Source: Naegleria gruberi
Lineage: Eukaryota
Reading direction: 5' to 3' (one strand)
Assembly (NCBI GenBank): GCA_000004985.1
Contig: GG738993.1
DNA length: 7,485 bases
Under the pieces are notes generated by a model that saw only the letters and a program-made list of their open reading frames with translations, was not told the origin of the DNA and did no database searches. Position numbers and translations under genes: made by a program. Of this stretch, positions 166 to 7,485 are shown piece by piece; position 1 is the first letter of the stretch; each line of letters opens with the position of its first letter.

Positions 166-305
166 ATGAAATTAATTTATTATATACTCTTCCTACTTTT
201 TCTACTAACTTTCTCTAATTGTTCTTCTTCCTTCGACTTTCGAATATTTTCTCTTCCGAAAATTCAAAAGTATAATACCAAAGATATCCAACAACAAGTA
301 ACGAA
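166..305 (+). CDS. 5' exon fragment of the receptor-like kinase gene: signal peptide and start of ectodomain (MKLIYYILFLLFLLTFSNC|SSSFDF...), interrupted by an assembly gap
   Basis: ATG at 166 is followed by a classic h-region (LIYYILFLLFLLTF) and a small-residue cleavage context (SNC-SSS). Open frame runs to the N-run. The ORF-track frame differs from the downstream main ORF, but the 50-N gap is a placeholder of unknown true length, so phase cannot be compared. Confidence 0.55.
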
Positions 306-355
306 NNNNNNNNNNNNNNNNNNNNNNNNNNNNNNNNNNNNNNNNNNNNNNNNNN
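306..355. other. assembly gap (50 N)
   Basis: Run of exactly 50 N. Confidence 0.95.
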
Positions 356-356
356 C

Positions 357-2926
357 GTTGTGGATGTTCATATTGAAAGAAATATTTCTCGTTCGGACTG
401 TGCTTCGTTTCTGCAAGTTGAATTATTCGAAAGTAAGAATAATTTGCAATATTTGCAATTGTATTTAAGATTTATTGGAAACGGCAATGGAATTGATTGT
501 GATAACCAAGGATTCTTTGCATTTACTATTAATTCATCAAAAGTTACAAGATTAGTCCAATTTCAAAATGTCACCTTTCAATCGGTTCAATTATTTGGTG
601 AATTACTTATATTTAGAGATGTTAACTTTGATGGTGGAGTTACTGTTTATGAAAATGCAATAGTTATGTGGAAAGTAAATGGTGAACTACCTATTGGAAA
701 GATTTCAATAGAAGAAAGTCGATGGAGATCAATTCTATTGGTGGATTCGAATTTTGCAGTCGAATCTTTGAATTATTTGGAGAAGGTAACTTCATTGTGG
801 ATTATTAGAGTGGCATTTAAATTGAATAACGTATTCCAATTGGTGAATATTGATGATTTGATATTGGAACATGTTAAATTCATGCCAGAAATTTATGATA
901 ATCGAATTTACAAATCTCCATTTGTATCCTTACGATTTATCAAATATGTAGTATTATTTAGAACTGAAATTGATGGATTTTCATATCAAACTGCTTTGAG
1001 TATTGAATATTCTGTTAATGTATTGATTTCATACTCATCCTTTTCGAATAATCATGTAAATTCCAAAGATTCCAATACGAATATACTCCTAGCAAAGGGA
1101 CTCAATCAATTACATGTTCTATATTGTAACTTTTTCAATAATATTGCAGAGTATGGTTCTGTTTTTGAAATTACTGGAATAAGTTCTCTATTAATTAGTA
1201 TGAATTCATTTCACAATAATACTATTGCTAATAGTGCTTTATATTTGGGAAGATATGTCGATACACACTATAGCTATGTGAGGATTCAGAATTCGATATT
1301 TACCGATAACAAAAGTTATTCGAAGGGAGGTGCACTAACCATTGACAAGTTATCCTCAGAACCTAATTTAAGCATTGAAGTTTATGGATGTTCCTTTTCT
1401 GAAAATAGTGGTGAATTTGGTGGTGCTATTCATTCATTTTCCAAATTATTGGTCACTGGAGGAATGTTTTATTCCAATACAGCAGTTCAACAGGGAGGTG
1501 CTATCTTTGCCAAGGATGGCCTCTCTCTTAGAAGCACATATTTTATTAATAATTCAGTAATTGATACAAGTCTAACCTATTGTACAGATAATAATTGTAT
1601 TGGTAGTGGAGGAGCTGTTTCGTTTCTCGTTGAAAATGGATCAGATTCATCCCTAGTGATATTCAGAAGCTCTTTCGATGGTAACACAGCCACTAGAGGA
1701 GGTGGTATTAGTATTAGCAGACCCGATGAGTTGAGTATTGAAGGTAATACTTTTAAAGATTGCAAAGCTGATTTTGCTGGAGGAGCACTTTTCATTAGCT
1801 CAATACTTAATCAAACATTTTCTAGCTCGCTAATTGAAAGTAACGAATTTTCAAATAATCAAGGATTGACTTATGGGGATGATATGAGTTCAATAGTTTA
1901 CACAGTCAATTGGAAATACTCAATTGATGGAAAACAGTATAATTATTTAGATTCGAATGGAATCAAAATTTATCCTGGGCAGGTATTCTCACTTTTTCCT
2001 GAAGCTTTTGACATTTTTGACCAATACATTCCAGTATTGAAGGAAACAAGTGAATTAGGCATCAAAAATAGTGATAAATTCCAATTAGAAAGACAAGGTT
2101 ATTCATTCGGTAACATATTCATTTCCGTTATCAATCAAACAGATTTTGACTCAACAAAATTGACATTGGTGAGCGCGTTTAGTGTTACCATTTCTGAAAT
2201 TCCAATTATTGTTGAACCATGCCCTTCTGATACAAGTTTAAAGCCAGCCAATTATGGAAAATCTTATGATTTCATTTGTCAGCAAAAGCCATCCTATGAT
2301 TATGTTATTGCTGTGGCTGTAACTCTAACCGTACTCACATTATCATTCTCTGTGGGAATGGTAGCAGTTTGTACCTATTTATGTGTTAAAATAACTCGAA
2401 AAGTTAATTATTGGGTTAAAAGAGATAAAGCAGAAAAGGACATTGAGAAGAGATTGTTGGAAAACGAAATAACCTACATGGAGGATCATTCTCTACAAAC
2501 TGTCAACAGTACAGGATCTGGTAAGAGACAACAAGTGTCCTTCATCATTAGTATCGATCAGATATTTCCAGAAAAGAAGATTGGAGAAGGTGGATCAGGA
2601 GTTGTCTATTTGGGAAAGTGGCATCACCATCCTGTTGCTATCAAATGTTTGAAAATTGAAGACACTGCCAATTCTGATGAAATTGAAAAGGAAGCTGCAA
2701 TGTTATGTCGATTGAGACATCCTAATATTGTGCTATTTTATGGTGTTTCACTAACACAACACAAGCAATACCTCGTAGTTGAATATTTGGAAAGAGGAAG
2801 CTTGGAAAAGTATATTCAAGATATGAAACGTCAAGAAATATCAGTAACCTTCTCTGAAAAGTTGAAACTCTTAATTGACATTGCATGTGGAATGGTTTAT
2901 TTACACAGTTTGAAAATAATTCATAG
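357..2926 (+). CDS. receptor-like protein kinase, main exon: ectodomain with Pmp-type beta-helix repeats, single TM, juxtamembrane segment and kinase N-lobe up to catalytic-loop HR
   Basis: 856-codon open frame (track 360..2930) that is open back to the N-run, so there is no true start here. Several NxS/T sequons (NISR, NSSK, NVTF, NNTI, NKSY, NLSI, NNSV, NGSD, NQTF, NQTD). About 10 repeats of FxxN followed about 10-15 aa later by GGA[ILV] (GGALTIDK, GGAIHSFS, GGAIFAKD, GGAVSFLV, GGGISISR, GGALFISS). Hydrophobic 28-aa stretch then a basic stop-transfer (KITRKVNYWVKRDK). Kinase motifs IGEGGSGVVYLGKW, VAIKCLK, LVVEYLERGSLEKY, HR. The frame ends AG|GTAAGT at 2926/2927. Confidence 0.85.
1041..1890 (+). 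repeat. coding region for about 10 tandem about 25-aa Pmp-type (Chlamydia polymorphic membrane protein-like) FxxN/GGA[IL] repeats; parallel beta-helix signature
   Basis: FSNN 1041-1052, FFNN, FHNN, FTDN...GGALTI (GGA at 1326-1334), FSEN...GGAIHS, FYSN...GGAIFA, FINN...GGAVSF, FDGN...GGGISI, FKDC...GGALFI, FSNN 1848-1859. Spacing is regular. Confidence 0.75.
2304..2388 (+). other. transmembrane helix coding segment (VIAVAVTLTVLTLSFSVGMVAVCTYLCV)
   Basis: 28 consecutive hydrophobic or small residues, followed by K/R-rich residues on the cytoplasmic side. Lies between the glycosylated ectodomain and the kinase domain. Confidence 0.8.
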
Positions 2927-2975
2927 GTAAGTGTGTTCATATTAAGAATATTAGAATTTTACCAATGAAAATTAG
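2927..2975 (+). other. spliceosomal intron (49 nt, GTAAGT...ATTAG), phase 2, splitting the kinase catalytic loop HR|DLKPANIL
   Basis: The exon ends ...CAT AG | gtaagtgtgttc. After ...aaaattag the base A2976 completes AGA (Arg), and GAT TTG AAA CCT GCC AAT ATT TTG follows, giving the canonical HRDLKPxN motif. Unspliced, the frame hits TAA at 2928. Confidence 0.85.
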
Positions 2976-3019
2976 AGATTTGAAACCTGCCAATATTTTG
3001 ATGGATGCCAACTGGACTG
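2976..3019 (+). CDS. receptor-like kinase, next exon (R-DLKPANILMDANWT...), runs into assembly gap
   Basis: In phase with the upstream exon after splicing. Catalytic loop DLKPANIL, typical of Ser/Thr and TKL kinases. Truncated by the N-run at 3020. Confidence 0.8.
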
Positions 3020-5225
3020 NNNNNNNNNNNNNNNNNNNNNNNNNNNNNNNNNNNNNNNNNNNNNNNNNNNNNNNNNNNNNNNNNNNNNNNNNNNNNNNNN
3101 NNNNNNNNNNNNNNNNNNNNNNNNNNNNNNNNNNNNNNNNNNNNNNNNNNNNNNNNNNNNNNNNNNNNNNNNNNNNNNNNNNNNNNNNNNNNNNNNNNNN
3201 NNNNNNNNNNNNNNNNNNNNNNNNNNNNNNNNNNNNNNNNNNNNNNNNNNNNNNNNNNNNNNNNNNNNNNNNNNNNNNNNNNNNNNNNNNNNNNNNNNNN
3301 NNNNNNNNNNNNNNNNNNNNNNNNNNNNNNNNNNNNNNNNNNNNNNNNNNNNNNNNNNNNNNNNNNNNNNNNNNNNNNNNNNNNNNNNNNNNNNNNNNNN
3401 NNNNNNNNNNNNNNNNNNNNNNNNNNNNNNNNNNNNNNNNNNNNNNNNNNNNNNNNNNNNNNNNNNNNNNNNNNNNNNNNNNNNNNNNNNNNNNNNNNNN
3501 NNNNNNNNNNNNNNNNNNNNNNNNNNNNNNNNNNNNNNNNNNNNNNNNNNNNNNNNNNNNNNNNNNNNNNNNNNNNNNNNNNNNNNNNNNNNNNNNNNNN
3601 NNNNNNNNNNNNNNNNNNNNNNNNNNNNNNNNNNNNNNNNNNNNNNNNNNNNNNNNNNNNNNNNNNNNNNNNNNNNNNNNNNNNNNNNNNNNNNNNNNNN
3701 NNNNNNNNNNNNNNNNNNNNNNNNNNNNNNNNNNNNNNNNNNNNNNNNNNNNNNNNNNNNNNNNNNNNNNNNNNNNNNNNNNNNNNNNNNNNNNNNNNNN
3801 NNNNNNNNNNNNNNNNNNNNNNNNNNNNNNNNNNNNNNNNNNNNNNNNNNNNNNNNNNNNNNNNNNNNNNNNNNNNNNNNNNNNNNNNNNNNNNNNNNNN
3901 NNNNNNNNNNNNNNNNNNNNNNNNNNNNNNNNNNNNNNNNNNNNNNNNNNNNNNNNNNNNNNNNNNNNNNNNNNNNNNNNNNNNNNNNNNNNNNNNNNNN
4001 NNNNNNNNNNNNNNNNNNNNNNNNNNNNNNNNNNNNNNNNNNNNNNNNNNNNNNNNNNNNNNNNNNNNNNNNNNNNNNNNNNNNNNNNNNNNNNNNNNNN
4101 NNNNNNNNNNNNNNNNNNNNNNNNNNNNNNNNNNNNNNNNNNNNNNNNNNNNNNNNNNNNNNNNNNNNNNNNNNNNNNNNNNNNNNNNNNNNNNNNNNNN
4201 NNNNNNNNNNNNNNNNNNNNNNNNNNNNNNNNNNNNNNNNNNNNNNNNNNNNNNNNNNNNNNNNNNNNNNNNNNNNNNNNNNNNNNNNNNNNNNNNNNNN
4301 NNNNNNNNNNNNNNNNNNNNNNNNNNNNNNNNNNNNNNNNNNNNNNNNNNNNNNNNNNNNNNNNNNNNNNNNNNNNNNNNNNNNNNNNNNNNNNNNNNNN
4401 NNNNNNNNNNNNNNNNNNNNNNNNNNNNNNNNNNNNNNNNNNNNNNNNNNNNNNNNNNNNNNNNNNNNNNNNNNNNNNNNNNNNNNNNNNNNNNNNNNNN
4501 NNNNNNNNNNNNNNNNNNNNNNNNNNNNNNNNNNNNNNNNNNNNNNNNNNNNNNNNNNNNNNNNNNNNNNNNNNNNNNNNNNNNNNNNNNNNNNNNNNNN
4601 NNNNNNNNNNNNNNNNNNNNNNNNNNNNNNNNNNNNNNNNNNNNNNNNNNNNNNNNNNNNNNNNNNNNNNNNNNNNNNNNNNNNNNNNNNNNNNNNNNNN
4701 NNNNNNNNNNNNNNNNNNNNNNNNNNNNNNNNNNNNNNNNNNNNNNNNNNNNNNNNNNNNNNNNNNNNNNNNNNNNNNNNNNNNNNNNNNNNNNNNNNNN
4801 NNNNNNNNNNNNNNNNNNNNNNNNNNNNNNNNNNNNNNNNNNNNNNNNNNNNNNNNNNNNNNNNNNNNNNNNNNNNNNNNNNNNNNNNNNNNNNNNNNNN
4901 NNNNNNNNNNNNNNNNNNNNNNNNNNNNNNNNNNNNNNNNNNNNNNNNNNNNNNNNNNNNNNNNNNNNNNNNNNNNNNNNNNNNNNNNNNNNNNNNNNNN
5001 NNNNNNNNNNNNNNNNNNNNNNNNNNNNNNNNNNNNNNNNNNNNNNNNNNNNNNNNNNNNNNNNNNNNNNNNNNNNNNNNNNNNNNNNNNNNNNNNNNNN
5101 NNNNNNNNNNNNNNNNNNNNNNNNNNNNNNNNNNNNNNNNNNNNNNNNNNNNNNNNNNNNNNNNNNNNNNNNNNNNNNNNNNNNNNNNNNNNNNNNNNNN
5201 NNNNNNNNNNNNNNNNNNNNNNNNN
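3020..5225. other. assembly gap or masked region (2206 N)
   Basis: Uninterrupted N-run. The ORF-track entries 2965..5238 and 3005..5287 are artefacts of translating N as X. Confidence 0.95.
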
Positions 5226-5281
5226 ATTTTGCTTTTGATGATAAAGGAAGATGTGATATTGATTTATTTTTTTATTTTAAA

Positions 5282-5332
5282 CCCTAATGACGGAAATAAG
5301 TGGTAGTTTGCAAAAAATCGAGGGGTAAAATC
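5282..5332. repeat. intergenic composite motif, copy A: CCCTAATGACGG (5282-5293), GAAATAAGTGGTAGTTTG, TTGCAAAAAATCGAGGGGTAAAATC (5308-5332). Related half-sites GTGAGGGGTTGATTTGCAA (5390-5408) and TTGAGGACTTGAATTTT (5412-5428).
   Basis: Blocks shared with 6906-7008 (see the finding). GC-rich islands in AT-rich spacer. Confidence 0.5.
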
Positions 5333-5336
5333 AGGT

Positions 5337-5360
5337 ACCACTATCTGAACAGTGGTTTTT
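5337..5360 (+). other. 6-bp perfect hairpin (ACCACT-atctgaac-AGTGGT) followed directly by TTTTT
   Basis: The stem and T5 are read directly. It lies in the convergent 3' intergenic space between the kinase gene and the minus-strand gene. Confidence 0.3.
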
Positions 5361-5449
5361 ATCAAATCCAGACCTGGCTTTTTGAAAAAGTGAGGGGTTG
5401 ATTTGCAATAAATTGAGGACTTGAATTTTTTACAATCATAACCTAAACT

Positions 5450-5455
5450 TTTATT
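5450..5455 (-). promoter_or_regulatory. AATAAA polyadenylation signal of the minus-strand gene
   Basis: The + strand TTTATT at 5450-5455 lies 6 nt downstream, in the minus sense, of the TGA at 5463-5461. Confidence 0.4.
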
Positions 5456-5460
5456 AAGAG

Positions 5461-5647
5461 TCAACTTAGCAGAATGGAATGGTTGGAAAAATGACCAAGA
5501 CCAAATGAATCAACAAATGAAAATGCGAGGTCTTTGAGGTTAGTAATTGGCTCCGTGAAAGTGTGAGTAAATTTCCCATCCACGTAATTATCCAAAATAG
5601 CAGATACAGTATTGTTCTTCTCAATAAAACTTGTGATTATTACACGT
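5461..5647 (-). CDS. last coding exon of minus-strand gene (...RVIITSFIEKNNTVSAILDNYVDGKFTHTFTEPITNLKDLAFSFVDSFGLGHFSNHSILLS*)
   Basis: 60 sense codons stay open in the phase fixed by the upstream exon, then TGA at 5463-5461. On the minus strand AATAAA lies at 5455-5450, 6 nt after the stop. Acceptor atattttag at 5650-5648. Confidence 0.6.
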
Positions 5648-5686
5648 CTAAAATATTAGTTGCAATTTAGTTATGAAACCACTTAC
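5648..5686 (-). other. intron (39 nt; GTAAGT...TTTTAG) of minus-strand gene
   Basis: Minus-strand GTAAGT at 5686-5681 and TAG acceptor at 5650-5648. Splicing keeps a 93-codon frame open across exons 2 and 3. Confidence 0.6.
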
Positions 5687-5784
5687 TTTCCACTGCTAGT
5701 AAAAGCATATTGAGATTGATTTAAGTGAAAAATCCATTGATTTGACACTAACAATGTTCCCTGAAACAGTCTTGACCACCAAAT
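5687..5784 (-). CDS. internal exon (98 nt; IWWSRLFQGTLLVSNQWIFHLNQSQYAFTSSGK) of minus-strand gene
   Basis: Only one of three frames is open. It is bounded by a ccctttcag acceptor (AG at 5786-5785) and a GTAAGT donor (5686-5681). The phase matches both flanking exons. Confidence 0.55.
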
Positions 5785-5884
5785 CTGAAAGGGATGTATT
5801 AATACGGAAATCCTAAAGATATCAATAAATTAATTAATTTAAATACTTACATGATTCTTATCGATTAGTCGTAGAATTAAATAC
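5785..5884 (-). other. intron (100 nt; donor AAG|GTATTT at 5884, acceptor TTTCAG at 5785) of minus-strand gene
   Basis: A donor at 5884-5883 skips the in-frame TAA at 5860-5858 and keeps the frame. An internal GTAAGT at 5850-5845 is an alternative donor that would instead end the protein at ...KVFNSTTNR*. Confidence 0.45.
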
Positions 5885-6340
5885 CTTTGCCATTTTGCCA
5901 AAGTTGAGCACATATTTCAACAGAGCATCTTTAGTTTTACATAATAAATGATCTTTGGGAAGCAATTCTCCTAATAATTTCAATAACAATCCAATCTTTG
6001 ATGTTGCAATCTCGAAAAATACAATAATAAAGAGAATAATTGTTATTGCTGTAACAACATTCACCGCCTACCCCTTATACAATGATTCGTCAACAATACT
6101 ACTACTATTGTCATTTAAATCAAATCCTCCCAATTCTCCAAAACTGAAACTCTCTTGCTCATGAAAAATTACTTCTTGTTGTCCAGATTTCAAACTTGAT
6201 TCATCTATTTCCAATTTCCAATTTCCAGTTAATAATTGTTCCTTTGTTACATTTTTGCTAATATCTTCATAGTCTCTTTTACAACCTTCTTGATACGTTT
6301 TCGTTCTCTGTATGTTTTTGTGTATTGAATGTTTTTCTTC
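5885..6340 (-). CDS. 5'-ward exon of minus-strand gene. 151 codons in one frame, interrupted by a single in-frame TAG at 6070-6068. Includes the hydrophobic segment VVTAITIILFIIVFFEIATSKIGLLLKLL. The 5' end and start codon are not resolved.
   Basis: Minus-strand frame: EEKHSIHKNIQRTKTYQEGCKRDYEDISKNVTKEQLLTGNWKLEIDESSLKSGQQEVIFHEQESFSFGELGGFDLNDNSSSIVDESLYKG-TAG-AVNVVTAITIILFIIVFFEIATSKIGLLLKLLGELLPKDHLLCKTKDALLKYVLNFGKMAK. The frame is closed upstream by TAA at 6343-6341. An ATG at 6359-6357 is in another frame. The purine-rich coding strand is the minus strand. Confidence 0.45.
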
Positions 6341-6430
6341 TTAACGCTTTTTGATTCATTTTTAATGTTTCATAAATGATAGACTTCTTAATTTAGAAAT
6401 TCTTCTTTCCAATAAAAGTGCTTTCTGTAG

Positions 6431-6648
6431 ATGGTGTTGGAGCCAAGATTAGATTTGAAGAGGTTGTTATTTCAGATAAAATCAATGAAGGAGAACACCT
6501 TGACATTCAGTTGGTAGAGGATATTTGCTTGACTTTTCAAAATGAGTGTCTCTTCAGTGAAATCAAGGACAAGATCAAAGACTATTTGAGTTCAGCTTTG
6601 AAAAAGAGAAGAGTCGAATTGAAGTTGAATAGTGTTTGTGACTTGTAA
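6431..6648 (+). CDS. terminal coding exon with no ATG (...VDGVGAKIRFEEVVISDKINEGEHLDIQLVEDICLTFQNECLFSEIKDKIKDYLSSALKKRRVELKLNSVCDL*) of an unidentified small gene
   Basis: 84-codon open frame with coding-like purine-rich composition and codon usage like the kinase gene. No in-frame ATG. The acceptor-like site ttcttctttccaataaaagtgctttctgtag ends at 6430. TAA at 6646-6648, then AATAAA at 6688-6693 and a GT-rich element at 6699-6718. No upstream partner exon was found. Confidence 0.4.
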
Positions 6649-6687
6649 ATTGGTGTGATGAGTGTGATGTGACAATTCTAAAAATTG

Positions 6688-6718
6688 AATAAACCAAATT
6701 TGTGTGCTATGGTGTGTT
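6688..6718 (+). promoter_or_regulatory. putative polyadenylation signal AATAAA plus a downstream GU-rich element for the 6431-6648 exon
   Basis: AATAAA lies 40 nt after the TAA. tttgtgtgctatggtgtgtt lies just downstream. Confidence 0.4.
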
Positions 6719-6905
6719 AGCCATTTAGGAATTGAATTTTGGTGGTCTGTTGTTTTTCGGAATGAGGTAGTTGTTTTTCAAAAGTAGCCGCCCTCTATTC
6801 TTTTTTCGAAAAATCAACTCCCGAATTTAATAAAACTTAATAGTTAAATACAGGGTACAATTTATGAAAAACACCAACCCTGTTGTTTAGCTGTGTGATT
6901 CTGAT

Positions 6906-7008
6906 GAAATGTGGTAGAAGATTTGTGTCAAAGTAGGACCTAAATTCATTTTTTTTTTGCTCAGGTTGGTGGTTTTTTGCGGTTCAGGGGTAAATCCCGT
7001 CATTAGGG
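6906..7008. repeat. intergenic composite motif, copy B: GAAATGTGGTAGAAGATTTG (6906-6925), TTTTTTGCGGTTCAGGGGTAAATC (6973-6996), CCGTCATTAGGG (6997-7008). Lies immediately upstream of the CPSF1 start.
   Basis: The 12-mer CCGTCATTAGGG is the exact reverse complement of 5282-5293. Both copies carry the (C/G)AGGGGTAAA(A)TC and GAAAT..GTGGTAG..TTTG blocks. Confidence 0.5.
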
Positions 7009-7051
7009 AAATAAATTTTAATAAAAATAAATTAAAAAAATTTCCAATACA

Positions 7052-7485
7052 ATGTTCGCGTGCTACAAACAGCTTCATCCTCCAACAGCTGTGTCATTCT
7101 GTTTGAAGGCACGATTTACATCAGCTAATGATGAAAATCTGATCATTGTTAAAAACAACATTATGGAGGTTTATTTAATCAAACCGAATACATCCAATAT
7201 TGTTCTTGTAAAAGTTTTTGAATTATTTGGAGTAATTGATTCTATAATTGCTGTTTGTCTTCAGGGTATGAAAAAGGAAATGCTTTTAATTAACTTTGAA
7301 GATGAAGCAAAAGTATCTGTTGTGGAGTTTGATGAGAAGAGGAGTGATCTTAAAACTTTATCTTTGCATTATCTCGAAGATGACTTTTTGAGAGAAGGTA
7401 AAGCTAGATTCTTTCACAATCAACCAATTATTTTGGATCCACAAAATAGATTTGCTACAGTAATTATTTGCGACTCTAAATTAGT
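7052..7485 (+). CDS. CPSF1: cleavage and polyadenylation specificity factor 160 kDa subunit (CPSF1) homolog, N-terminal beta-propeller region; the CDS continues past the window end
   Basis: ATG at 7052, then 144 codons open to the window end. The translation [43 protein letters not shown]...[45 protein letters not shown] matches the conserved N-terminus of metazoan CPSF1, recalled from memory as MYAVYKQAHPPTGLEF...[38 protein letters not shown]. The weaker relatives DDB1 and SF3B3 belong to the same family. Confidence 0.8.
   Translation, partial: [144 protein letters not shown]

What the first reader, a model, noticed from the sequence alone, without database searches (positions are those of the whole stretch)
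166..3019. Receptor-like TKL Ser/Thr kinase whose ectodomain is a Chlamydia-Pmp-type beta-helix repeat array
The architecture is read directly from the translation. A signal peptide is followed by a Cys-poor, heavily N-glycosylatable domain of about 10 FxxN...GGA[ILV] repeats. That is the signature of polymorphic-membrane-protein and autotransporter-like parallel beta-helices. One TM helix follows, then a kinase domain with an HRDLKPANIL catalytic loop, which is the Ser/Thr or TKL type rather than the Tyr type HRDLAARN. A Pmp-type passenger domain used as the sensor module of a eukaryotic transmembrane kinase is an unusual domain combination. It suggests either a lineage-specific receptor family or an old lateral domain acquisition. 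Gene families of this kind are typically expanded and involved in surface recognition, so the ligand is unknown and could be anything from cell-cell contact cues to microbial surfaces.
Basis: partly seen in the sequence, partly recalled or inferred. Interest (0 to 1): 0.65.

Follow-up and report, generated by a model that had tools for sequence, protein, structure and literature searches.

The report
Naegleria beta-helix receptor-like kinase gene
This is a gap-broken gene of the amoeba Naegleria gruberi. It encodes a membrane-spanning signalling kinase whose outside part is a bacterial-adhesin-style (Pmp-repeat) beta-helix. It belongs to a small Naegleria family that I could not find described in the papers I could search.

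Summary
The window is a whole 7,485-bp Naegleria gruberi scaffold, and the gene is NAEGRDRAFT_76450 (XP_002668634). It is annotated only as a truncated 754-aa "predicted protein".

An 857-codon open frame (357-2926) continues across a 49-nt GT-AG intron and encodes, in order:
- an N-terminal beta-rich region
- an Ig-like beta-sandwich
- one TM helix
- an invariant juxtamembrane helix
- the N-lobe and catalytic loop (HRDLKPANIL) of a TKL-type kinase

Assembly gaps cut the link to the signal-peptide exon (306-355) and the rest of the kinase (3020-5225).

Complete homologues with the same layout exist. There are two N. gruberi paralogues, one N. fowleri protein and four environmental contigs. Where enough of the ectodomain is present they pass Pfam's Chlam_PMP cut-off, and where the C-lobe is present the kinase motifs are intact.

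The family is small, not expanded. Sequons are not enriched. A lateral origin cannot be decided. Beta-helix plus kinase also occurs in other unidentified organisms. I found no literature on the family.

Verdict: real. It is a new ectodomain variant of protist receptor-like kinases, of moderate interest.

The parts
166..305 (+). Putative first exon: start codon, signal peptide (hydrophobic core aa 3-16, ...FSNC/SSS) and the first residues of the ectodomain
   Evidence: The link to the main ORF is inferred only: same strand, adjacent, and homologues start with a signal peptide. There is no significant similarity, and the 50-N gap breaks the frame relation.
306..355 (.). Assembly gap (50 N). It probably hides about 90-100 codons of the N-terminal ectodomain, an intron, or both.
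   Evidence: Homologues have 140-155 residues upstream of the aligned point, whereas this gene has 46.
357..998 (+). N-terminal ectodomain region (aa 1-214). It is beta-rich, poorly conserved and modelled at low confidence. It is probably the irregular first coils or cap of the solenoid.
   Evidence: AF2 pLDDT 24-84 with short strands. Alignment with family members is weak.
999..1886 (+). Right-handed parallel beta-helix built of Pmp-type repeats (aa 215-510). The six canonical FxxN...GGA[ILV] coils lie at nt 1299-1796.
1902..2291 (+). Membrane-proximal Ig-like beta-sandwich (aa 516-645). It is family-specific, with conserved W519, PGQ (540-542) and two invariant Cys (C622, C641).
2301..2387 (+). 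Single transmembrane helix (YVIAVAVTLTVLTLSFSVGMVAVCTYLCV)
   Evidence: It gives the highest hydropathy window in the protein. AF2 models it as one continuous helix together with the juxtamembrane segment.
2409..2462 (+). Juxtamembrane helix YWVKRDKAEKDIEKRLLE. It is the most conserved non-kinase motif of the family (W686, R689, E693, K694, E697, R699, L700, E702 invariant).
   Evidence: (alignment A2). The helix is predicted.
2571..2926 (+). Kinase domain, N-lobe to the first part of the catalytic loop. Contains GEGGSG (from nt 2583), the VAIK lysine K763 (nt 2643-2645), the alpha-C Glu, and H856 plus the first two bases of R857.
   Evidence: Pfam PK_Tyr_Ser-Thr 1.2e-30 and Pkinase 7.8e-29. 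Nearest solved chains are the Src/Abl ancestor, CTR1 and RAF.
2927..2975 (+). 49-nt intron (AG|GTAAGT...AG) splitting the Arg codon of HRD
   Evidence: It is the only GT/AG pair that restores IIHRDLKPANIL. The same intron position occurs in homologue L001. It is absent in L004.
2976..3019 (+). Start of the next exon: (R)DLKPANILMDANWT, cut by the gap
3020..5225 (.). Assembly gap (2,206 N). It must contain the remaining roughly 225 codons of the kinase (DFG, APE, CW...RP) and the 3' end of the gene.
   Evidence: Homologues continue for 225-330 residues.

Best explanation
The locus is one gene, N. gruberi NAEGRDRAFT_76450, for a type-I single-pass receptor-like protein kinase.

Shown:
- The extracellular part is a rigid right-handed parallel beta-helix made of Pmp-type FxxN/GGA coils.
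- The helix sits on an Ig-like beta-sandwich.
- A single TM helix runs straight into a strongly conserved charged juxtamembrane helix (YWxxRDxAEKDxEKRLLE).
- This is followed by a TKL-group kinase domain.

Inferred mechanism:
- The beta-helix face binds an extracellular surface ligand. The most likely ligand is a glycan or a surface protein on bacterial prey, on other cells or on the substratum. All close structural matches are polysaccharide-binding enzymes or adhesins, and Pmp repeats mediate adhesion in Chlamydia.
- Binding clusters or re-orients receptor molecules through the stalk, TM and juxtamembrane helix.
- The kinase domains then trans-phosphorylate and signal to the cytoplasm. Plausible targets are the actin and phagocytic machinery, as for Entamoeba TMKs.

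The gene is one of a small Naegleria-type family. Its database model is truncated only because of two assembly gaps and an unmodelled intron.
For: Identity and source: (100% to XP_002668634, contig length 7,485).

Eukaryotic gene:
- GC is 32%.
- There is a GT-AG intron at a position conserved in L001.
- The neighbouring gene is an RSE1/DDB1/CPSF1 propeller.

Beta-helix:
- AF2 model.
- Foldseek hits are all beta-helices.
- Motif statistics.
- PF02415 is present in every ectodomain hit and is above the cut-off in paralogues.

Stalk, TM and juxtamembrane region.

Kinase:
-.
- Complete homologues keep VAIK, HRD, DFG, APE-like and CW...RP motifs.

Same collinear architecture:
- N. gruberi XP_002673827 and XP_002674570.
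- N. fowleri XP_044567378.
- Contigs L001 and L004, and fragment P0059.

Adhesive role of the Pmp motifs and their identity with beta-helix coils: PMC2997323, PMC11166332, PMC10715098.

Protist TMKs have lineage-specific ectodomains: PMC10463195.

Entamoeba TMKs act in phagocytosis and proliferation: PMC2880585.
Against: - No expression, localisation, ligand or kinase-activity data exist for any member.
- The window copy lacks the visible C-lobe (gap), so its own catalytic competence is unproven.
- The signal-peptide exon is not provably joined.
- The window protein's own Chlam_PMP score is sub-threshold (13.6 versus 20.6 bits).
- Trichomonad Pmp-like proteins localised to internal compartments rather than the surface (PMC6701047), so plasma-membrane residence is not guaranteed.
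- The ligand class is a guess from fold analogies.
Confidence: 0.75

Rival explanations
1. The protein is a lumenal sensor of endomembranes or phagosomes rather than a cell-surface receptor. It resides on vesicles with the beta-helix facing the lumen, where it contacts ingested bacteria, and its kinase regulates phagosome maturation.
For: The topology is identical for either location. Trichomonad Pmp-TMD proteins tagged with HA were found on internal compartments (PMC6701047, read). From my own knowledge, not checked here, Dictyostelium VSK3 is a vesicle-resident TM TKL kinase that acts in phagosome maturation.
Against: There are no localisation data. No endocytic or retention motif was examined. 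Entamoeba EhTMKB1-9 is at the cell surface (PMC2880585).
Confidence: 0.15
2. The protein is an adhesin or structural surface protein with a vestigial kinase (pseudokinase). In this case the window copy is a decaying paralogue on an unplaced scaffold.
For: The C-lobe cannot be seen (gap 3020-5225). The scaffold is small and unplaced. The ectodomain is diverging fast, with only 30-33% identity to named relatives.
Against: - An 857-codon ORF stays open in 32% GC DNA (log10 P about -31).
- GxGxxG, the VAIK Lys, the alpha-C Glu and HRDLKPAN are all intact.
- The kinase part is the best-conserved part of the family, and all catalytic motifs are intact in complete homologues.
Confidence: 0.07
3. The architecture is an annotation or assembly chimera, or bacterial contamination. 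In this case a bacterial Pmp gene has been joined artificially to a eukaryotic kinase.
For: Apart from the family, ectodomain hits are mostly prokaryotic metagenome proteins. The scaffold contains two gaps.
Against: - There is no gap between the ectodomain and the kinase: one uninterrupted ORF runs 357-2926 through the TM segment.
- Base composition is uniform at about 30-35% GC.
- The same fusion is seen in independent assemblies of N. gruberi and N. fowleri and in several metagenomes.
Confidence: 0.01

Closest known systems
Naegleria paralogues and orthologues: N. gruberi NAEGRDRAFT_80827 (XP_002673827, 1,213 aa), NAEGRDRAFT_70310 (XP_002674570, 1,103 aa), N. fowleri FDP41_011595 (XP_044567378, 1,272 aa). 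All are database entries without a described function.
   Same: They are collinear over the whole length: Pmp beta-helix, Ig-like stalk with CP...C, TM, YWxxRDxAEKDxEKRLLE helix and TKL kinase.
   Different: They are only 30-33% identical overall, and the N-terminal ectodomain is barely alignable. They are complete, whereas the window copy is cut by gaps. Environmental contigs L004 (58% over TM-kinase), L001 (44-47%) and P0059 (43%) are closer.
Chlamydial polymorphic membrane proteins (Pmp; type V autotransporters)
   Same: Repeated FxxN and GGA[ILV] tetrapeptides form the coils of a right-handed beta-helix with an adhesive surface role (PMC11166332, PMC10715098, PMC2997323).
   Different: This protein has no Pmp middle domain and no autotransporter beta-barrel, since there is no PF03797 hit. 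It is anchored instead by a eukaryotic TM helix and carries a kinase. It has far fewer canonical repeats.
Trichomonad Pmp-like surface proteins (e.g. TVAG_249300)
   Same: These are eukaryotic type-I membrane proteins in which Pmp repeats are followed by a single TM domain that replaces the bacterial autotransporter module (PMC6701047).
   Different: Trichomonad proteins have a short cytoplasmic tail with endocytic motifs and an ATPITK motif. Here there is no ATPITK, and the tail is a roughly 500-residue juxtamembrane plus kinase module.
Entamoeba histolytica transmembrane kinases (EhTMK families A-F, e.g. EhTMKB1-9, PATMK)
   Same: [quoted passage not shown] They have roles in proliferation, adhesion and phagocytosis (PMC2880585).
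   Different: The Entamoeba ectodomains are CXXC-rich repeats related to the Gal/GalNAc lectin Igl. Here there is no CXXC motif and the ectodomain is a beta-helix. Entamoeba has about 90 genes; Naegleria has a handful.
Raf-like/MLK-type TKL kinases (Arabidopsis CTR1, human TNNI3K, ZAK, TAK1, Dictyostelium Roco4)
   Same: These are the best solved-structure matches to the family's kinase domain (E 4.6e-42 to 2.5e-29). They share the HRDLKxxN loop and the CW...RP subdomain XI.
   Different: They are cytosolic kinases without an ectodomain or TM helix. The family also has a 30-60-residue insert in the C-lobe.
Unidentified beta-helix kinases P0203 (SRR6483236) and P0210 (SRR29268118), and bacterial-type P0216
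   Same: They combine Pmp or Beta_helix repeats with a Hanks-type kinase. P0203 and P0210 also have the signal peptide, ectodomain, TM and kinase order.
   Different: - DNA composition differs (56% and 46% GC).
- They have no Ig-like stalk or juxtamembrane motif.
- Their kinases are no closer to the family than plant Raf-like kinases are (102-107 versus 137-158 bits).
- P0216 has the kinase at the N-terminus.
- These are probably independent fusions.

Membership tests
Chlam_PMP repeat proteins (Pfam PF02415 / TIGR01376) | Multiple FxxN and GGA[ILV] tetrapeptide repeats at coil spacing | tested here: met
   There are 6 GG[AG][ILV] motifs at 25-38-residue spacing, 12 FxxN motifs and 5 pairs. None of 20,000 shuffles reaches 6 motifs or 5 pairs.
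Chlam_PMP repeat proteins (Pfam PF02415 / TIGR01376) | Score above the curated HMM cut-off | tested here: not met
   The window protein scores 13.6 bits against a 20.6 cut-off (Pfam) and 14 against 15 (TIGR01376). Its paralogues and the N. fowleri sequence do pass, at 24.8, 34, 35.4 and 41.2 bits. All 26 non-self ectodomain hits carry PF02415.
Chlam_PMP repeat proteins (Pfam PF02415 / TIGR01376) | [quoted passage not shown] | tested here: met
Chlamydial Pmp autotransporters (type Va secretion) | C-terminal autotransporter beta-barrel (PF03797) and Pmp middle domain | tested here: not met
   There is no such Pfam hit at E<=1. The C-terminus is an Ig-like domain, a TM helix and a kinase instead.
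Eukaryotic protein kinase superfamily, TKL group | Pkinase / PK_Tyr_Ser-Thr domain with GxGxxG, VAIK Lys, alpha-C Glu and an HRDLKxxN catalytic loop | tested here: met
   PF07714 1.2e-30 and PF00069 7.8e-29. The motifs were read.
Eukaryotic protein kinase superfamily, TKL group | Nearest characterised relatives are TKL kinases | tested here: met
   The full kinase of paralogue P0030 matches CTR1, TNNI3K, ZAK, TAK1, Roco4, RIPK4, MLK4 and B-Raf. The window N-lobe alone gives a mix of the Src/Abl ancestor, CTR1 and RAF.
Eukaryotic protein kinase superfamily, TKL group | DFG, APE and subdomain XI (CW...RP) intact | not testable with these tools
   These lie in the 2,206-N gap (3020-5225). They are intact in homologues P0030, P0176, L001 and L004.
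Type-I receptor-like kinase | Cleavable N-terminal signal peptide on the same polypeptide | tested here: inconclusive
   A good candidate exon lies at 166-305. It is separated by a 50-N gap, lies in a different frame and has no significant similarity to homologue N-termini.
Type-I receptor-like kinase | Single TM helix between the ectodomain and a C-terminal kinase in one ORF | tested here: met
   One ORF runs 357-2926. The TM helix is at aa 649-677.
Type-I receptor-like kinase | Ligand-dependent activation at the cell surface | not testable with these tools
   No experimental data exist, and nothing was found in the literature.
Entamoeba-type TMKs | CXXC-rich (Igl/VSP-like) ectodomain | tested here: not met
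   The 648 ectodomain residues contain no CXXC motif and 9 Cys.
Trichomonad Pmp-like proteins | Pmp repeats, ATPITK motif, TMD and a short tail with endocytic motifs | tested here: not met
   The repeats and TMD are present. ATPITK is absent, and the tail is a kinase. The definition is from PMC6701047.

The most novel reading that the evidence does not exclude
This Naegleria family would be a pattern-recognition-type receptor system of a free-living or pathogenic amoeba. A beta-helix module of ultimately bacterial origin was captured and wired to a TKL kinase. It detects glycans or surface proteins of bacterial prey, and in N. fowleri of host cells, and triggers adhesion or phagocytosis. Unrelated eukaryotes (P0203, P0210) would have arrived at the same solution independently.
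Probability: 0.12. Interest if true: 0.7.

Novelty: new variant of a known kind. Interest (0 to 1): 0.4.

Why it matters
Receptor kinases of protists are poorly charted. About 40% of the non-kinase regions of protist transmembrane kinases have no Pfam annotation, and those that are annotated are mostly lineage-specific (PMC10463195). Naegleria was not in that survey.

This family adds a sensor type, a Pmp-style beta-helix on an Ig-like stalk, that I did not find described for any receptor kinase in the literature I could search. It therefore gives a concrete candidate for how Naegleria might sense surfaces or prey. Naegleria includes the brain-eating N. fowleri, which has a member (FDP41_011595).

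The result also corrects a truncated database gene model. It further shows that the link between Pmp repeats and eukaryotic membrane anchoring, known from trichomonads, extends to a signalling receptor. The practical impact is modest until a ligand or phenotype is known.

Tried and rejected
- Pfam and NCBIfam on the window protein alone gave only sub-threshold Pmp hits. This was resolved through homologues and structure.
- The first word-indexed homologue search found no Naegleria paralogue. The exhaustive search did.
- The afdb50 fold library was unavailable, so no predicted-structure neighbours or organism names could be obtained.
- Exon 1 showed no significant similarity to the N-terminus of homologue L001.
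- The encoding contigs of P0030 and P0184 were not on record. I therefore could not check whether N. gruberi NAEGRDRAFT_30678 is a fourth member with an unannotated ectodomain. It is a 320-aa kinase-only model scoring 273 bits to the family kinase.
- Cluster names for the ten best non-family Pmp hits gave mixed or no taxa, so no donor lineage could be named.
- Eight literature searches found nothing on Naegleria Pmp-kinases. The cross-kingdom TMK survey lacks Naegleria, and its supplements were not held.
- The contamination or chimera idea was rejected (see rival explanations).
- The 'heavily glycosylated' claim was rejected.
Full report
**Source and state of the sequence.** The ectodomain translation is 100% identical to "predicted protein [Naegleria gruberi]" (P0001 = EFC35890 / XP_002668634, NAEGRDRAFT_76450). 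The longest contig for that protein is 7,485 bp, which is exactly the window. The window is therefore a complete small scaffold of the N. gruberi assembly. It contains two N runs, 306-355 (50 N) and 3020-5225 (2,206 N). GC outside the gaps is 32%. The database model has 754 aa. It starts at an internal Met (MWKVNG) and ends at ...IIHR because it reads into an intron, so it is truncated at both ends.

**Checking the observation.** The ORF listing gives a 46-codon ORF piece from ATG166 and a long frame to 2930.
- The long frame is open from the gap edge at 357.
- With donor AG|GTAAGT at 2927 and acceptor AG at 2975, it continues as ...SLKIIHR-DLKPANILMDANWT up to the second gap. This is the only GT/AG combination that restores a kinase catalytic loop.
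- An 857-codon open frame in DNA of this composition has log10 P of about -31.
- Exon 1 encodes a textbook signal peptide (MKLIYYILFLLFLLTFSNCSSS). It is in another frame, is separated by the 50-N gap, and has no significant similarity to the N-terminus of a complete homologue (E=5.1). Its assignment is positional inference.
- Homologues carry 140-155 residues before the first aligned position, against 46 here. The gap therefore probably hides about 90-100 codons, an intron, or both.

**Repeats.**
- GG[AG][ILV] occurs 6 times (aa 324, 355, 380, 418, 448, 475, spacing 25-38) against 0.077 expected. None of 20,000 shuffles reaches 6.
- FxxN occurs 12 times against 4.1 expected (8 of 20,000 shuffles reach 12).
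- FxxN followed within 30 residues by GGA occurs 5 times against 0.013 expected.
- The ectodomain is Cys-poor (9 of 648 residues, no CXXC).
- It is not enriched in N-x-S/T sequons: 10 observed against 9.1 expected from composition.

**Is the ectodomain Pmp-type and a beta-helix?**
- On its own the protein misses the curated cut-offs: Chlam_PMP 13.6 versus 20.6 bits, and TIGR01376 14 versus 15.
- All 26 non-self hits of a word-indexed search carry PF02415 (E from 5.6e-24 to 8.6e-4).
- An exhaustive phmmer search of 1.84 billion representatives gives 1,891 hits at E<=1e-3.
- The family members score above threshold, at 24.8-41.2 bits.
- An AF2 model built on the hit alignment has mean pLDDT 62, but residues about 210-500 are mostly above 85 and form regular strand triplets.
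- Foldseek against PDB returns only right-handed parallel beta-helices, at weak E-values.
The fold is a beta-solenoid, and the homology is to Pmp-repeat proteins.

- Between the helix and the membrane lies a 130-residue domain (aa 516-645) that is shared only with family members.
- A second AF2 run on the family alignment models this domain confidently (pLDDT 84) as a beta-sandwich, followed by one long helix that comprises the TM segment and the juxtamembrane region.
- The juxtamembrane stretch YWVKRDKAEKDIEKRLLE (nt 2409-2462) is the most conserved non-kinase element of the family. W686, R689, E693, K694, E697, R699, L700 and E702 are invariant. In the stalk, W519, PGQ 540-542, C622-P623 and C641 are also invariant.

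**Kinase.**
- Pfam gives PK_Tyr_Ser-Thr 1.2e-30 and Pkinase 7.8e-29 over aa 739-869, matching only the first half of the models.
- The visible part has GEGGSG, VAIK, the alpha-C Glu and HRDLKPAN.
- Its nearest solved chains are a Src/Abl ancestor, CTR1, BMX/ABL and RAF.
- The full kinase of paralogue P0030 matches TKL-group kinases best: CTR1 4.6e-42, then TNNI3K, ZAK/MLT, TAK1, Roco4, RIPK4, MLK4 and B-Raf.
- Complete homologues keep DFG, an APE-like motif and the CW...RP of subdomain XI.
- "TKL-type" is supported for the family. For the window copy, the C-lobe is simply not in the assembly.

**The family.** Collinear matches over the whole ectodomain are the following.
- N. gruberi NAEGRDRAFT_80827 (P0030, 1,213 aa). 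It is complete, with signal peptide, Pmp helix, stalk, TM and kinase.
- N. gruberi NAEGRDRAFT_70310 (P0034, 1,103 aa).
- N. fowleri FDP41_011595 (P0176, 1,272 aa; P0028 is a metagenome copy).
- ENA fragments P0059 and P0065.
- P0065 sits on a 6-kb metagenome contig (L001, GC 33%) next to a Ras-family gene. With its flanking ORFs it makes a complete gene with a signal peptide. It has an intron at exactly the same place in the HRD codons as the window gene.
- L004 (ENA ERZ4903137) carries the closest relative, P0183, which is 58% identical over TM-kinase. It has Pmp repeats, the stalk and an uninterrupted complete kinase.
- Identity of the window protein to the named relatives is only 30-33%. 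The N-terminal third of the ectodomain is barely alignable.
- Of the 180 proteins in hand at that point (the 150 best Pmp-type representatives plus earlier hits and cluster members), only family members contain a kinase.
- The family is thus real and so far Naegleria-type. It is small: three confirmed N. gruberi genes. A fourth is possible, NAEGRDRAFT_30678, a 320-aa kinase-only model whose locus I could not retrieve.

**Is the combination unique?** It is not. A profile search with the family alignment found three other proteins that combine Pmp or Beta_helix repeats with a kinase.
- P0203 (2,142 aa, from SRR6483236 and several metagenomes) has a signal peptide, Pmp repeats, a Cys-rich EGF-like stalk, a TM helix and a TKL-like kinase.
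- P0210 (1,637 aa, SRR29268118) has Beta_helix repeats, a TM helix and a kinase.
- P0216 has the bacterial arrangement: kinase at the N-terminus and Pmp repeats at the C-terminus.
- Their DNA is 56% and 46% GC. They lack the family stalk and juxtamembrane motif. Their kinases are no closer to the family than plant Raf-like kinases are (102-107 versus 137-158 bits).
- I read these as independent fusions, but I could not identify the organisms.

**Origin of the beta-helix.** Non-family similarity is confined to the repeat region. The nearest clusters come from a planctomycete MAG, methanogen MAGs, Methanobrevibacter, the green algae Bryopsis and Caulerpa, and a sponge. The same problem is described for trichomonad Pmps, where identity is restricted to the repeat motifs and precludes phylogeny (PMC6701047). 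Lateral acquisition is possible but cannot be tested here.

**Mechanism.**
- Shown: the domain order and the folds.
- Inferred: type-I topology with the beta-helix outside. The rigid helix-plus-Ig-stalk acts as a binding platform, and ligand-driven clustering is transmitted by the TM and juxtamembrane helix to a TKL kinase that trans-phosphorylates.
- The ligand class is a guess, a glycan or surface protein of prey or other cells. It rests on two things: the structural neighbours are polysaccharide-acting enzymes and adhesins, and Pmp repeats have an adhesive role (PMC2997323).
- The closest functional analogues are the Entamoeba TMKs. They have the same topology with a tyrosine-kinase-like domain and roles in proliferation, adhesion and phagocytosis, but CXXC-rich ectodomains (PMC2880585).
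- The closest structural analogues for the outside part are the trichomonad Pmp-like proteins, which have Pmp repeats and a TMD but only a short tail (PMC6701047).
- A vesicle or phagosome-lumen location is the main rival.

**Literature and novelty.** None of the eight searches found a description of Pmp-ectodomain kinases in Naegleria or elsewhere. The cross-kingdom TMK survey does not include Naegleria. It stresses that protist TMK ectodomains are largely lineage-specific and about 40% unannotated (PMC10463195). The proteins themselves are already in public databases as uncharacterised predictions. I therefore rate this as a new ectodomain variant of a known kind, protist single-pass receptor-like TKL kinases. 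It is real and correctly read by the first stage, and of moderate interest (0.4).

**Other things in the window.**
- 7052-7485(+) starts a gene for an RSE1/DDB1/CPSF1-type first beta-propeller (PF10433, 1.3e-13).
- A 36-nt imperfect inverted repeat with a perfect 12-nt core (CCCTAATGACGG / CCGTCATTAGGG) brackets 5258-7032.
- ORF fragments on the minus strand (5461-6214) and a 76-aa ORF (6418-6648, +) have no Pfam match.

Noticed in passing
window 7052-7485 (+): Start of a neighbouring gene. Its first 144 codons match the RSE1/DDB1/CPSF1 first beta-propeller (PF10433, E 1.3e-13). It runs off the end of the scaffold.
   Followed up: partly
window 5258-5293 and 6997-7032: A 36-nt imperfect inverted repeat (72% complementary) with a perfect 12-nt core, CCCTAATGACGG / CCGTCATTAGGG, lies 1.7 kb apart. 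It brackets unannotatable ORF fragments. It could be the ends of a mobile or foldback element.
   Followed up: no
window 5461-6214 (-) and 6418-6648 (+): Several short ORF pieces lie here (44-76 aa; for example MEIDESSLKSGQQEV... on the minus strand and MLSVDGVGAKIRFEEV... on the plus strand). They look like exons of small genes, but those scanned have no Pfam match.
   Followed up: partly
L002 2001-8429 (P0203, SRR6483236) and L003 63-4976 (P0210, SRR29268118): Two large proteins from unidentified, more GC-rich organisms also combine a Pmp or Beta_helix ectodomain, one TM helix and a TKL-like kinase. They lack the Naegleria stalk and juxtamembrane motifs. These are probably independent inventions of the same architecture.
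   Followed up: partly
L001 2801-2803 and L004 965-973: In both environmental homologues the ectodomain reading frame is interrupted by an in-frame stop, and the coding sequence resumes immediately afterwards. In L001 the break falls within a GGxIY coil. In L004 it falls within the stalk. These are most likely very short unrecognised introns. The HRD-codon intron is shared by the window and L001 but is absent in L004.
   Followed up: partly
P0184 (N. gruberi NAEGRDRAFT_30678, 320 aa, on a 707-kb scaffold): This is a kinase-only gene model. Its kinase is 51% identical to the window's and scores 273 bits to the family kinase. It may be a fourth family member with an unannotated upstream ectodomain. 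The locus could not be retrieved.
   Followed up: partly
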